This document shows, piece by piece, positions 1 through 1,241 of a DNA stretch of 1,241 nt. Both the position numbers and the translations under genes were made by a program. The stretch comes from Escherichia coli (GTDB lineage: Bacteria; Pseudomonadota; Gammaproteobacteria; Enterobacterales; Enterobacteriaceae), in NCBI RefSeq assembly GCF_003334765.1, contig NZ_QOWT01000080.1; one strand, written 5' to 3'. The notes beneath the pieces were generated by a model. It was not told the origin of the DNA. It ran no database searches and saw only the letters and a list, made by a program, of their open reading frames with translations. Every line of letters begins with the position of its first letter. Position 1 is the first letter of the stretch.

Positions 1-15
1 AAATGTTCGTCTCAT
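1..15 (-). CDS. insI: IS30 transposase, first 5 codons only (MRRTF); the CDS continues off the left edge of the window
   Basis: ATG at 13-15 on the minus strand followed by AGA CGA ACA TTT; matches the remembered IS30 transposase start MRRTFTAEEKA. The symbol insI is the E. coli K-12 name for the IS30 transposase. Confidence 0.6.
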
Positions 16-51
16 TCAAAAAACCTCCGCAACCCCATGTTTTCACATAAC

Positions 52-77
52 TGTTGCGTTGACCAATTGAATCTACA
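52..77 (-). repeat. IS30 left terminal inverted repeat (about 26 bp), outer end at position 77
   Basis: Terminal TGTAGATTCAATTGGTCAACGCAACAG on the minus strand; the sequence changes abruptly at 77/78 into IS3-family orfA coding sequence. Exact IR length is recalled, not measured. Confidence 0.6.
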
Positions 78-340
78 GTTGCTTTTTTTAATATATCTCG
101 CTCAAGGCGAGCTTCATTTAACGCCTTACGCAGTTGCAGAATTTCAGATTCCAGTTCAGCCACCGTGCGGGAACCAGGAGTACCGAGCCCTTTTCTGGCG
201 GCGGTAACCCATTGTCCTAAAGTGCCTTCAGGAAGAGATAATCGGGAAGCGCCTTCACTGATCGAAAGTTGATTTTCAAGAACCGTTCTGACAGCTTCGG
301 CTTTGAACTCTTTAGAGTAACGTTGGGTTTTTCTGCTCAT
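78..340 (-). CDS. IS3-family (IS600-like) OrfA, N-terminal 88 codons, truncated by IS30. The reading frame stays open through the IS30 inverted repeat to the window start, giving a chimeric tail VDSIGQRNSYVKTWGCGGFLNETNI...
   Basis: ATG at 338-340 (minus strand); translation MSRKTQRYSKEFKAEAVRTVLENQLSISEGASRLSLPEGTLGQWVTAARKGLGTPGSRTVAELESEILQLRKALNEARLERDILKKAT, with a helix-turn-helix-like N-terminus and a heptad-Leu coiled coil typical of IS3-family OrfA. Strong AAGGAG Shine-Dalgarno 6 nt upstream of the ATG. Confidence 0.8.
83..89 (-). other. A7 slippery run (TTA AAA AAA GCA), the likely programmed -1 frameshift site that would join orfA to orfB
   Basis: Seven consecutive A on the minus strand, in the ILKKA segment at the orfA C-terminus. 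IS3-family elements use A6G/A7 slippery heptamers here to make the OrfAB transposase. The IS30 junction is only 6 bp downstream. Confidence 0.5.
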
Positions 341-346
341 TATTAG

Positions 347-352
347 CTCCTT
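347..352 (-). promoter_or_regulatory. Ribosome-binding site (AAGGAG) of the IS3-family orfA
   Basis: Minus strand reads AAGGAG-CTAATA-ATG, i.e. a consensus Shine-Dalgarno with 6-nt spacing to the orfA start codon. Confidence 0.7.
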
Positions 353-360
353 CTGATGCC

Positions 361-389
361 ATTCTATTTCAGGAAGGAGTGTCCGTTAA
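361..389 (-). promoter_or_regulatory. Candidate sigma70 promoter for orfA inside the IS left end: -35 TTAACG (384-389), 17-bp spacer, -10 TAGAAT (361-366)
   Basis: Hexamers read on the minus strand. The -10 matches TATAAT at 5 of 6 and the -35 matches TTGACA at 4 of 6. The position between the IS terminus and the orfA RBS fits the known location of IS3-family orfA promoters. Found by eye only. Confidence 0.35.
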
Positions 390-404
390 ACTCAGGCTAC
401 CTCA
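380..404 (-). repeat. Left terminal inverted repeat of the IS3-family element (approximate extent), outer end at 404
   Basis: Minus-strand terminal sequence TGAGGTAGCCTGAGTTTAACGGACA. The inner boundary cannot be fixed without the other end of the element. Confidence 0.5.
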
Positions 405-420
405 GCGTATCTCGGCATCA

Positions 421-1241
421 ATGCGCAAACAGCCTGATGCCCTTCGCTACGACCGCCAAACTATTTTTGGCCTTGTCCGTGAGCGTCCGATCGACATTCA
501 CAAAGATCCCGTAGCACTGAACAAATATATCTGCGAATACCTGACGACAAAGGGCGTGTTTGAGAATGAAGAAACAGACCTGGGCACTGTTGATGTTCTC
601 CAGTCATCAGAAACACAAACTGATGCAGTGGAAACTGAGGTATCTGATATCCCAAAAAATGAAACCGCGCCGGAAGCTGAACCATCTGTAGAGCGTGAGG
701 GGCCGTTCTATTTCCTCTTCGCAGATAAGGACGGAGAAAAATACGGTCGCGCAAACAAACTCTCTGGTCTGGATAAGGCACTGGCTGCTGGCGCCACTGA
801 AATCACAAAAGAAGAATATTTTGCCCGAAAAAATGGCACATACACGGGCTTACCGCAAAATGTAGATACCGCTGAAGATTCAGAACAACCAGAGCCGATA
901 AAAGTTACCGCTGACGAAGTAAACAAAATTATGCAGGCAGCCAATATCAGCCAGCCTGACGCCGATAAGTTGCTTGCTGCATCACGTGGTGAATTTGTTG
1001 AAGGGATTAGTGACCCGAATGATCCGAAATGGGTTAAGGGGCTCCAGACCCGCGATTCTGTGAACCAGAACCAGCATGAATCGGAACGGAACTACCAAAA
1101 AGCGGAACAAAACAGTCCAAATGCGTTACAAAACGAGCCAGAAACGAAACAGCCTGAACCAGTAGCGCAACAGGAAGTGGAAAAAGTCTGCACCGCCTGC
1201 GGTCAGACCGGCGGCGGCAACTGCCCTGATTGTGGCGCGGT
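421..1241 (+). CDS. recE: Partial CDS with no stop in the window: acidic protein with a CxxC-x7-CxxC zinc ribbon, probably the central region of a prophage RecE-like (exonuclease VIII) protein. Likely 5'-truncated by the IS insertion, so possibly a pseudogene or gene remnant.
   Basis: Frame 1 is open from 316 to 1241; the first in-frame ATG is at 421. Translation MRKQPDALRYDRQTIFGLVRERPIDIHKDPVALNKYICEYLTTKGVFENEE...EVEKVCTACGQTGGGNCPDCGA. The frame checks out at every 60-bp line start and the composition is coding-like. There is no Shine-Dalgarno upstream of ATG 421, which sits 17 bp from the IS terminus. The recE assignment rests on remembered similarity to the region upstream of the RecE nuclease domain and is not verified. 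Confidence 0.55.
   Translation, partial: MRKQPDALRYDRQTIFGLVRERPIDIHKDPVALNKYICEYLTTKGVFENEETDLGTVDVLQSSETQTDAVETEVSDIPKNETAPEAEPSVEREGPFYFLFADKDGEKYGRANKLSGLDKALAAGATEITKEEYFARKNGTYTGLPQNVDTAEDSEQPEPIKVTADEVNKIMQAANISQPDADKLLAASRGEFVEGISDPNDPKWVKGLQTRDSVNQNQHESERNYQKAEQNSPNALQNEPETKQPEPVAQQEVEKVCTACGQTGGGNCPDCGA
1189..1233 (+). other. CxxC-x7-CxxC zinc-ribbon-like motif (C-TA-C-GQTGGGN-C-PD-C) within the plus-strand CDS
   Basis: Four Cys codons at 1189-1191, 1198-1200, 1222-1224 and 1231-1233 in the CDS frame, separated by a Gly-rich loop. Confidence 0.6.

What the first reader, a model, noticed from the sequence alone, without database searches (positions are those of the whole stretch)
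1186..1241. Zinc-ribbon motif embedded in a long acidic region
CxxC-x7-CxxC with a Gly-rich loop sits at the end of about 200 residues rich in E, D, Q, N and P that look intrinsically disordered. Such small zinc ribbons in phage recombination or replication proteins often mediate protein-protein or nucleic-acid contacts. I do not recall this motif having a described role in RecE-like proteins.
Basis: partly seen in the sequence, partly recalled or inferred. Interest (0 to 1): 0.3.

Follow-up and report, generated by a model that had tools for sequence, protein, structure and literature searches.

The report
Portable four-cysteine module in phage exonuclease
The four-cysteine motif is real and conserved, and it is half of a roughly 35-residue, probably metal-binding mini-module that temperate phages of enteric bacteria attach to unrelated early proteins (RecE, a 3'-5' exonuclease, Dam methylases, small unknown proteins); its function is undescribed, and the copy in this window lies in an insertion-sequence-truncated pseudogene.

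Summary
**Observation.** Confirmed. CTACGQTGGGNCPDC (CxxC-x7-CxxC) is encoded at window 1189-1233 in frame 1. Shuffling gives a chance expectation of about 1e-4.

**Where it sits.** The window is an E. coli Qin-type prophage remnant. IS30 (1-77) lies inside IS600 (78-403), and IS600 cuts an 823-aa exonuclease gene at codon 290. The intact protein shares its middle with K-12 RecE, which has the same motif at Cys517/520/528/531. Its C-terminal catalytic domain, however, is a DEDD 3'-5' exonuclease (PF16473), not the RecE nuclease.

**What the motif is.** It is the first half of a module whose invariant part, CPDCG-[AP]-VMGDATY-xx-M, runs past the window end. The same module occurs in several settings:
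- as the C-terminal tail of P2-like prophage Dam methylases in eight named genera of Enterobacterales;
- in small proteins of Mu-like and lambdoid early regions;
- in Aeromonas phage proteins.

It is cleanly absent from Gifsy-2 and Klebsiella RecE orthologues.

**Metal binding.** Four ligands are kept even where the second one shifts position (C-x6-C-x2-C-x2-C) or is histidine. This argues for metal binding.

**What is known.** No Pfam, NCBIfam, PDB or literature entry describes it.

**Function.** Inferred only: a metal-stapled portable adaptor.

**Scores.** New variant of a known kind; moderate interest.

The parts
1189..1233 (+). Two Cys knuckles, CTACG and CPDCG, separated by QTGGGN. This is the presumed Cys4 metal site and the N-terminal half of the module (Cys551/554/562/565 of the intact 823-aa protein).
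   Evidence: 81 of 87 E. coli 90%-identity clusters that cover the site keep it. C23, P24, D25 and C26 are invariant across 34 diverse carriers.
1234..1241 (+). Start of the invariant G-[AP]-V-M-G-D-A-T-Y-x-x-M segment. The window ends inside the Val codon, and the rest of the module (about 45 nt) lies beyond the window.
1042..1188 (+). Polar, acidic low-complexity linker (50-65% E/D/Q/N/P) leading into the module.
   Evidence: Its length and sequence vary among homologues.
901..1041 (+). Conserved segment VTADEVNKIMQAANISQPDADKLLAASRGEFVEGISDPNDPKWVKG. Its GE[FY]VEGISDPNDPKW core is shared with all RecE-like proteins examined, including those that lack the Cys module.
404..1241 (+). 5'-truncated exonuclease pseudogene, covering codons 290 to about 568 of an 823-aa gene and continuing past the window into a DEDD 3'-5' exonuclease domain.
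   Evidence: 831/831 nt identical to phage PhiR42_1 over window 411-1241. Pfam PF16473 matches residues 642-813 of the intact protein.
78..403 (-). Fragment of IS600 (IS3 family): its terminal sequence and the first 88 codons of orfA (from window 340 downwards). It is itself interrupted by IS30.
   Evidence: for the annotation, for the junction at 403/404. The orfA reading comes from the sequence. That the OrfA reading frame is broken after residue 88, and that the break marks the IS30 junction, rests on my recollection of the IS600 and IS30 sequences.
1..77 (-). End of IS30: terminal inverted repeat ending at window 77, and the transposase start codon at window 15-13.
   Evidence: IS30 transposase CDS ends at window 15. 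The repeat was read directly; recognising it as the IS30 repeat is from memory.

Best explanation
**What it is.** The motif is the metal-binding half of a small autonomous module of about 30-35 residues. Two cysteine knuckles (CxxCG ... CPDCG) are expected to hold one metal ion, most probably zinc. They are followed at once by an invariant G-[AP]-VMGDATY-xx-M(F) segment, which is predicted to start a short amphipathic helix.

**How it behaves.** The module sits in disordered linkers or at the extreme C-terminus of otherwise unrelated early-region proteins of temperate phages of Enterobacterales and Aeromonas: RecE-type 5'-3' exonucleases, DEDD 3'-5' exonucleases, P2-like Dam methyltransferases, and small Mu-like or lambdoid proteins of unknown function. 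It has been gained, lost and shuffled as a unit.

**Most likely function (inferred, not shown).** It is a portable adaptor. The metal staples a tiny fold that tethers whichever enzyme carries it to one common target. I rate a conserved host protein as somewhat more likely than DNA, because no basic residue is invariant and the flanks are acidic.

**The copy in this window.** It is a relic in a gene decapitated by IS600/IS30.

**My sub-probabilities.**
- Real, selected, portable module: about 0.9.
- Binds a metal through the four ligands: about 0.75.
- Acts as a docking adaptor: about 0.5. Within that, a protein target is about 0.6 and a nucleic-acid target about 0.4.
For: **Shown**
- The motif is present and non-random.
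- The same module is in K-12 RecE, Rac-SA53 RecE and DEDD exonucleases with two different N-termini.
- tblastn with the region finds the module alone in Dam methylases of Enterobacter, Klebsiella and Salmonella P2-like phages and in Aeromonas phage proteins.
- A 39-position profile searched against 1.84 billion representative proteins gives 75 hits. About 45 of them are single-stretch genuine hits in proteins of 39-991 aa. In many of the small proteins and Dam methylases the CPDC knuckle lies only about 20-27 residues from the C-terminus.
- One genome per species: 15 loci. Thirteen are assigned to eight genera of Enterobacterales; two are from metagenome bins labelled Lachnospiraceae and Proteobacteria that carry near-identical E. 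coli-type genes. Ten of the 15 are Dam proteins with the module as a tail.
- The Dam model TIGR00571 ends at residue 280, and the module follows at 284-310.
- The module is a clean insertion/deletion of roughly 45-60 residues between RecE orthologues that are 46-49% identical.
- Each locus examined carries a single copy, always within a phage early or accessory gene block.
- The number of ligands is kept while their arrangement changes. Type A is C-x2-C-x6/7-C-x2-C. Type B is C-x6-C-x2-C-x2-C. Two sequences have His in place of a missing Cys.
- Within close E. coli relatives the module is 95% conserved, against 77-88% for its flanks.
- AlphaFold2 with 34 sequences places beta bridges at the knuckles and a helix starting at DATY.

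**Inferred**
- Metal binding.
- The adaptor role.
- The preference for a protein target. This rests on the conserved V, M, Y, M, F and the absence of any invariant K or R, the acidic flanks, and the fact that no phage gene is visibly shared among the carrier loci.
Against: - No metal, partner or phenotype has been measured.
- The AlphaFold2 models are of low confidence (pLDDT 56 and 60).
- The fold search gave nothing significant (best E 3.3).
- The conserved hydrophobic residues could simply form the core of the mini-fold rather than an interface.
- Three identified carriers act on DNA, and K/R is semi-conserved next to the first Cys and in the loop. Direct DNA binding therefore remains a serious alternative.
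- Gifsy-2 and Klebsiella RecE orthologues lack the module. From my own recollection of the recombineering literature, N-terminally truncated RecE still supports recombineering. The module is therefore dispensable for core catalysis.
Confidence: 0.55

Rival explanations
1. Nucleic-acid-binding knuckle. The module is a small DNA-binding (ssDNA or DNA-end) zinc knuckle that adds substrate affinity or processivity in cis to DNA enzymes such as exonucleases and the Dam methylase.
For: - All identified cargo domains act on DNA: RecE PD-(D/E)xK, DEDD exonuclease, D12 methyltransferase.
- K/R is frequent two residues before the first Cys and in the loop. Type B has CK...CRGC.
- There is one invariant Tyr.
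- The carriers sit among recombination and replication genes.
Against: - No basic residue is invariant or nearly invariant across 34 carriers.
- In the RecE-like and DEDD proteins the module sits in strongly acidic sequence (net -19 over the 200 aa upstream).
- Most carriers are small proteins with no recognisable DNA-enzyme domain.
Confidence: 0.25
2. Self-association or end-tethering element. The module mediates oligomerisation, either by metal bridging between chains as in the Rad50 hook or by helix pairing. It would bring two enzyme molecules, and so two DNA ends, together. This would fit the reported advantage of full-length RecE in linear-plus-linear recombination.
For: - The module lies in the RecE N-terminal part (Cys517-531). 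[quoted passage not shown]
- Low AlphaFold2 confidence for the monomer is compatible with folding only on assembly.
Against: - Four ligands are kept within one chain even when their spacing changes. This points to an intramolecular site.
- A tethering role does not explain the module on monomeric Dam methylases or on 60-90 aa proteins.
- The RecE nuclease domain already tetramerises on its own.
Confidence: 0.1
3. Selfish or neutral passenger. The segment persists because it marks a recombination junction between exchangeable gene halves, or it is a harmless structural staple in a linker with no function of its own.
For: - It sits at the boundary where N-terminal halves and nuclease domains are swapped.
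- A deletion variant joins two GGGN-coding repeats (P0168).
- Orthologues without it exist.
Against: - The protein sequence is kept at about 60-70% identity between E. coli prophages and Aeromonas phages, in entirely different carrier genes.
- Ligand swapping preserves four ligands.
- The module is better conserved than its flanks.
- Together these indicate selection on the peptide, not on the DNA.
Confidence: 0.07
4. Chance cysteine cluster or disulfide pair with no metal.
For: No experimental metal data exist. AlphaFold2 confidence is low.
Against: - Chance expectation is about 1e-4.
- The cysteines are conserved across about 45 clusters at 50% identity.
- These are cytoplasmic phage proteins, where disulfides are not expected (general knowledge).
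- The CxxCG / CPxCG knuckle signatures are those of metal sites.
Confidence: 0.03

Closest known systems
Cys4 knuckle metal sites of rubredoxin and zinc-ribbon type (CxxCG ... CPxCG)
   Same: - Both knuckle signatures are present (CTACG and CPDCG), giving four Cys ligands.
- Weak, non-significant similarity to ribbon proteins: ribosomal L32 and TFIIB at E 0.3-0.8, and Pfam DZR at E 0.025 in 1 of 29 carriers.
- The non-significant fold matches are mostly small zinc domains.
   Different: - The spacer is only 7 residues (2 in type B), against roughly 10-30 in ribbons and rubredoxins.
- There is no three-stranded sheet and no aromatic core.
- An invariant VMGDATY-xx-M helix follows the second knuckle.
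- The second ligand can move.
- No family model reaches significance.
RecE / exonuclease VIII of the Rac prophage (NCBIfam NF007259; Pfam PF06630 and PF12684)
   Same: - The window's protein aligns to ExoVIII profile positions 271-600.
- K-12 RecE carries the same module at Cys517/520/528/531, upstream of the nuclease domain.
   Different: - The catalytic domain here is a DEDD 3'-5' exonuclease (PF16473), not the PD-(D/E)xK 5'-3' nuclease.
- No recT follows the gene; xis and int do.
- The score is far below the family cut-off (282 vs 1269 bits).
- The N-terminus of the intact protein is of a different type from K-12 RecE.
DnaQ-like 3'-5' nucleases of lambdoid recombination modules (Genome Res 2025, PMC12315714)
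   Same: The intact gene encodes such a nuclease in the early-left region next to xis/int.
   Different: That paper does not describe the RecE-like N-terminal two-thirds or the Cys module. In its text 'zinc' occurs only in a cited title about HNH enzymes.
Rad50 zinc hook (functional analogy only)
   Same: A CxxC-based metal site set in a long flexible region of a DNA-end-processing protein.
   Different: The Rad50 hook supplies two Cys per chain and dimerises at the apex of a coiled coil. Here four ligands lie in one chain and there is no coiled coil. I found no sequence relationship.
MtrI of Methanosarcina mazei (PDB 9QTR chain i), the nearest solved sequence
   Same: A small protein with CxxC-x8-CxxCG-x-VM that docks onto a partner complex.
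   Different: The E-value is only 0.018 against the PDB, and the match covers the knuckles alone. It comes from an archaeal membrane-complex context and lacks the GDATY segment. This is most likely convergence.

Membership tests
Classic zinc ribbon | Two CxxC (often CPxCG) knuckles supplying four ligands. | tested here: met
   CTACG and CPDCG at window 1189-1236.
Classic zinc ribbon | Knuckles separated by, and followed by, beta-hairpins that form a three-stranded sheet; significant match to a ribbon family model. | tested here: not met
   - The spacer is 7 residues, or 2 in type B.
- AlphaFold2 shows only isolated beta bridges.
- PDB ribbon proteins score E >= 0.3.
- Pfam DZR scores E 0.025 in 1 of 29 carriers.
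Classic zinc ribbon | Stoichiometric zinc binding. | not testable with these tools
   Needs metal analysis of the purified peptide.
RecE / exonuclease VIII (NF007259) | Whole-protein score above the curated cut-off. | tested here: not met
   281.6 bits against a cut-off of 1269. Only profile positions 271-600 are matched.
RecE / exonuclease VIII (NF007259) | C-terminal PD-(D/E)xK nuclease domain (PF12684). | tested here: not met
   Pfam finds PF16473 (E 5e-67) and weak RNase_T only. PF12684 is found in other module carriers.
RecE / exonuclease VIII (NF007259) | Adjacent recT partner gene. | tested here: not met
   The gene is followed by xis and int in ML35, PhiR42_1 and 689R5. Rac and Gifsy-2 do have recT.
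DEDD (DnaQ-like) 3'-5' exonuclease, Rv2179c-like PF16473 | Full-length match to the domain model. | tested here: met
   Residues 642-813 match model positions 2-177 of 177, E 5.2e-67. This domain lies downstream of the window.
DnaJ-type CxxCxGxG zinc centre | Repeated CxxCxGxG motifs and a match to PF00684. | tested here: not met
   The pattern here is CxxCGxxG / CxxCGxxxG. No carrier hits PF00684.
Beta-clamp-binding peptide (QL[SD]LF type; considered for the YQEMF segment) | Gln at position 1, hydrophobic residues at positions 4-5, in a pentapeptide register. | tested here: not met
   The residue four positions before the F is the invariant Tyr, not Gln. The Q/N/R/A position is variable, and the Dam tails lack the F. 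The consensus itself is from memory.

The most novel reading that the evidence does not exclude
The CxxCG-x6-CPDCG-x-VMGDATY-xx-MF unit is an uncatalogued, horizontally shuffled docking module. Through it, temperate phages of enteric bacteria would plug different early enzymes and small effectors (RecE, a 3'-5' exonuclease, Dam, and Mu-like early-region proteins) into one conserved host hub, such as a replisome, repair or proteolysis component, or a defence component. Under this reading its presence in RecE could underlie the unexplained contribution of the RecE N-terminal region to linear-linear recombination.
Probability: 0.3. Interest if true: 0.65.

Novelty: new variant of a known kind. 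Interest (0 to 1): 0.42.

Why it matters
- **RecE.** RecE is a workhorse of recombineering. Two-thirds of the protein is still labelled 'unknown function', and full-length RecE behaves differently from the nuclease domain alone. This work gives a defined, conserved and mutable element inside that region (K-12 Cys517/520/528/531).
- **A testable handle.** The same element is bolted onto Dam methylases and small early proteins of other phage types. A pull-down with one 35-residue peptide, or a four-residue Cys-to-Ser mutant, could reveal a target shared by several phage families.
- **Annotation.** The module makes unrelated proteins hit 'exodeoxyribonuclease VIII' models. Small proteins and DEDD exonucleases are probably being misnamed as a result.
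- **Limit.** The function is unknown, and the copy in this window is in a dead gene.

Tried and rejected
1. **The search for homologous proteins**, run with the 150-aa region and then with the motif alignment. It returned only proteins shorter than about 1.8 times the query. These were mostly E. coli fragments: useful for counting Cys conservation but not for domain architectures.
2. **One literature search wasted.** It used word-start matching, so 'RecE' matched 'receptor'.
3. **Fu et al. 2012**, the full-length RecE paper, is not held in the library. I could not check whether their truncations bracket the module.
4. **AlphaFold2, run twice** on 39 aa with 11 sequences and on 51 aa with 34 sequences. 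Confidence was low both times.
5. **Foldseek against the PDB** gave nothing below E 3.3.
6. **Profile against PDB sequences.** Only knuckle-level, non-significant matches. The best, MtrI, is an archaeal small protein and I treat it as convergence.
7. **Multi-stretch hits of the big profile search.** These were Bacteroidota VTGDATYKATF repeats and Firmicutes CTEAGHTAGEYCPDCE repeats. I inspected and discarded them as repeat artefacts.
8. **Beta-clamp motif, DnaJ motif and RecT-binding site.** All considered and rejected. See the membership rows for the first two. The RecT idea fails because recT is absent from the DEDD-type loci and the Dam loci.
9. **Viral-contig scan.** It returned at least 536 confirmed stretches, but the 80 loci kept are all near-identical E. 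coli prophage copies. It added counts rather than diversity.
10. **Rfam scan of the window:** nothing.

Full report
**1. What the window is**

The whole window is 100% identical to 40 complete E. coli genomes, for example strain ML35. It lies in a Qin-type prophage remnant between relBE/hokD/ydfV and xis-int-rspB.

- Window 1-77 is the end of an IS30 copy.
- Window 78-403 is a fragment of IS600, with orfA on the minus strand. Recognising the IS30 terminal repeat and the break in OrfA after residue 88 rests on my memory of those sequences.
- From window 404 onwards the sequence matches codon 290 onwards of an 823-aa gene of phage PhiR42_1. It is 831/831 nt identical over window 411-1241.
- NCBI's PGAP annotation pipeline marks the local gene as a pseudogene lacking its N-terminus.

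**2.

Frame 1 encodes ...QQEVEKV-CTAC-GQTGGGN-CPDC-GA, with Cys codons at 1189, 1198, 1222 and 1231. Random placement of the frame's five cysteines produces such a pattern about once in 10,000 trials.

The upstream 200 residues are 41% E/D/Q/N/P with net charge -19. They also contain two conserved islands of ordinary composition, so only the last 60 or so residues look like pure low-complexity linker. The window ends 8 nt after the fourth Cys.

**3. The carrier protein is RecE-like only in the middle**

- The intact protein matches the exonuclease VIII model only over profile positions 271-600. It scores 282 bits against a cut-off of 1269.
- Its C-terminal domain is a DEDD 3'-5' exonuclease, PF16473 at E 5e-67, with a distant solved relative, 8KEL.
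- No recT follows the gene.
- A second phage, 689R5, joins a RecE-type N-terminus to the same middle and the same DEDD domain.
- K-12 RecE and Rac-SA53 RecE join that middle to PD-(D/E)xK nucleases.
- K-12 RecE carries [30 protein letters not shown], with Cys517/520/528/531. [quoted passage not shown]
- A 2025 survey noted DnaQ-like nucleases in lambdoid recombination modules but did not describe this architecture.

**4. The motif is half of a portable module**

- tblastn with the 150-aa middle region found the segment on its own in three settings: the C-terminal tail of Dam methylases of Enterobacter and Klebsiella P2-like elements, Salmonella P2-like Dam methylases, and a hypothetical protein of Aeromonas phages.
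- A 39-position profile searched against 1.84 billion representative proteins gave 75 hits. The multi-stretch ones are repeat artefacts.
- About 45 single-stretch hits are genuine. They are RecE-like proteins, DEDD exonucleases, Dam methylases and many proteins of 60-455 aa with no Pfam domain. In many of the small proteins and Dam methylases the CPDC knuckle is only about 20-27 residues from the C-terminus.
- Pfam recognises only the cargo domains: Exonuc_VIII, MethyltransfD12 and DUF3799.
- PHROGs assigns several cargos to families of unknown function, two of which (phrog_6680 and phrog_10472) have profiles of only about 80 positions.
- The small carriers lie in early or accessory blocks. 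Examples are a Mu-like phage (repressor, MuA, MuB, kil, DUF3164), a lambdoid element with RecT, RdgC and Dam, and a locus where the carrier sits next to an MT-A70 methylase.
- Each locus holds one copy.
- Scanning one genome per species with the strict pattern CPDCG[AP]VM gave 15 loci. Thirteen are assigned to Escherichia, Citrobacter, Yokenella, Enterobacter, Trabulsiella, Hafnia, Kosakonia and Klebsiella. Two are from metagenome bins labelled Lachnospiraceae and Proteobacteria that carry near-identical E. coli-type genes. Ten of the 15 are Dam proteins with the tail.
- IMG/VR holds at least 536 confirmed stretches. Of the 80 best loci kept, 75 encode the DEDD type, as in this window.

**5. 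Conservation pattern**

- Across 34 diverse carriers, C23, P24, D25, C26, G31 and T34 are invariant. The first Cys, three Gly, the Val and the Tyr are at least 90% conserved.
- The second ligand is either three residues after the first (type A) or moved to three residues before CPDC (type B: CKTMGPTCRGCPDC). Two sequences use His. Keeping four ligands while rearranging them is the strongest sequence argument for a metal site.
- In 87 E. coli clusters covering the site, 81 keep CxxC-x7-CxxC. The six exceptions are two frameshifted sequences, three with a single Cys substitution, and one type-B sequence with the alternative ligand spacing.
- Within close relatives the module is 95% conserved, against 77-88% for the flanks.
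- Gifsy-2 and Klebsiella RecE orthologues are 46-49% identical to a module-bearing RecE. They lack the module as a clean insertion/deletion but keep the upstream GE[FY]VEGISDPNDPKW segment.

**6. Structure**

AlphaFold2 on the module gave low confidence (pLDDT 56 with 11 sequences, 60 with 34). Both runs were consistent in showing beta bridges at the knuckles and a helix beginning at DATY. Foldseek found nothing significant, and the weak matches are mostly small zinc domains. A profile search of PDB sequences gave only knuckle-level similarity. The best was MtrI at E 0.018, followed by L32 and TFIIB ribbons at E above 0.3.

**7. Mechanism**

*Shown:* a selected, autonomous, shuffled peptide unit with four conserved metal-type ligands.

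*Inferred:*
- It binds one metal ion, zinc by analogy. The CxxCG/CPxCG signatures also fit iron sites.
- It acts as an adaptor, attaching diverse early proteins to a common target.
- I lean towards a host protein as the target. No basic residue is invariant, the conserved residues are hydrophobic (V, M, Y, M, F), the flanks are acidic, and the carrier phages share no obvious partner gene.

Direct DNA binding is the main rival, because the identified cargos are DNA enzymes and K/R is semi-conserved near the first Cys. Oligomerisation, a neutral passenger and a chance cluster rank lower. RecT binding is unlikely because the DEDD-type and Dam loci have no recT.

**8. Comparison with known families, and novelty**

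The module is of the Cys4 knuckle kind but fails the tests for a classic zinc ribbon (spacer length, sheet, model match). It also fails the DnaJ motif and the clamp-binding peptide (see the membership rows).

No Pfam or NCBIfam model, solved structure or paper in the searchable library describes it. Only whole-protein ExoVIII models and PHROGs exonuclease families cover it. This makes unrelated small proteins hit 'exonuclease' models.

I therefore rate it a new variant of a known kind, with moderate interest. It is a concrete, testable element inside the unexplained part of RecE and a link between lambdoid, P2-like and Mu-like early proteins. Its function is unknown, and the copy in this window sits in a dead gene.

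Noticed in passing
window 1-403: Nested insertion sequences. An IS30 end (1-77, transposase ATG at 15-13 on the minus strand) is inserted into IS600 (78-403, orfA from 340 downwards, broken after 88 codons). IS600 in turn truncates the exonuclease gene at codon 290. Forty complete E. coli genomes share this exact arrangement.
   Followed up: partly
window 988-1032 (within 901-1041): The peptide GEFVEGISDPNDPKW is the most widely conserved piece of the RecE-family middle region. Gifsy-2 and Klebsiella RecE keep it although they lack the Cys module. On its own it matched Salmonella and Klebsiella phages in tblastn. Its function is unknown.
   Followed up: partly
window ~691-850: A second conserved island of ordinary composition (EREGPFYFLFADKDGEKYGRANKLSGLDKALAAGATEITKEEYFARKNGTY) lies inside the supposedly disordered stretch. 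It is specific to proteins that share the PhiR42_1-type N-terminal part.
   Followed up: no
P0168 (756-aa RecE-like protein): A deletion variant in which ...ASGANAGGGN is joined directly to [13 protein letters not shown]. This looks like recombination between two GGGN-coding repeats about 270 codons apart. It leaves only the second knuckle.
   Followed up: no
L009 (Klebsiella phage ST846-OXA48phi9.2 RecE), protein residues ~565-580: At the position where the module would align, this module-less RecE reads ...AERCPDLTAEVL. It may be a decayed remnant of CPDC, or a coincidence.
   Followed up: no
L013:8537-9541: The gene immediately downstream of a module-bearing small protein (P0154) has a weak DnaJ_CXXCXGXG Pfam hit. 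A regex scan of the locus found no second copy of the module.
   Followed up: partly
P0139, P0140, P0180: The profile also hit large repeat proteins. One is a Bacteroidota-like protein with many VTGDATYKATF repeats. Others are Firmicutes-like surface proteins with repeated CTEAGHTAGEYCPDCE or ATCTxxGxTxGxxCxxCG units. The latter resemble a Cys3-His mini-repeat and look superficially like the knuckle region here. I treated them as unrelated.
   Followed up: partly
L010:6839-7001 (K-12 Rac prophage): ydaE, two genes upstream of recE, is annotated as 'zinc-binding protein'. No relationship to the module was seen, and I did not compare them.
   Followed up: no
L002 and L003 (phages PhiR42_1 and 689R5): The 3'-5' exonuclease genes are annotated 'exodeoxyribonuclease VIII' in GenBank phage records. 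PGAP calls the same protein '3'-5' exoribonuclease domain-containing protein'. The shared middle region, including the module, appears to drive the ExoVIII naming.
   Followed up: partly
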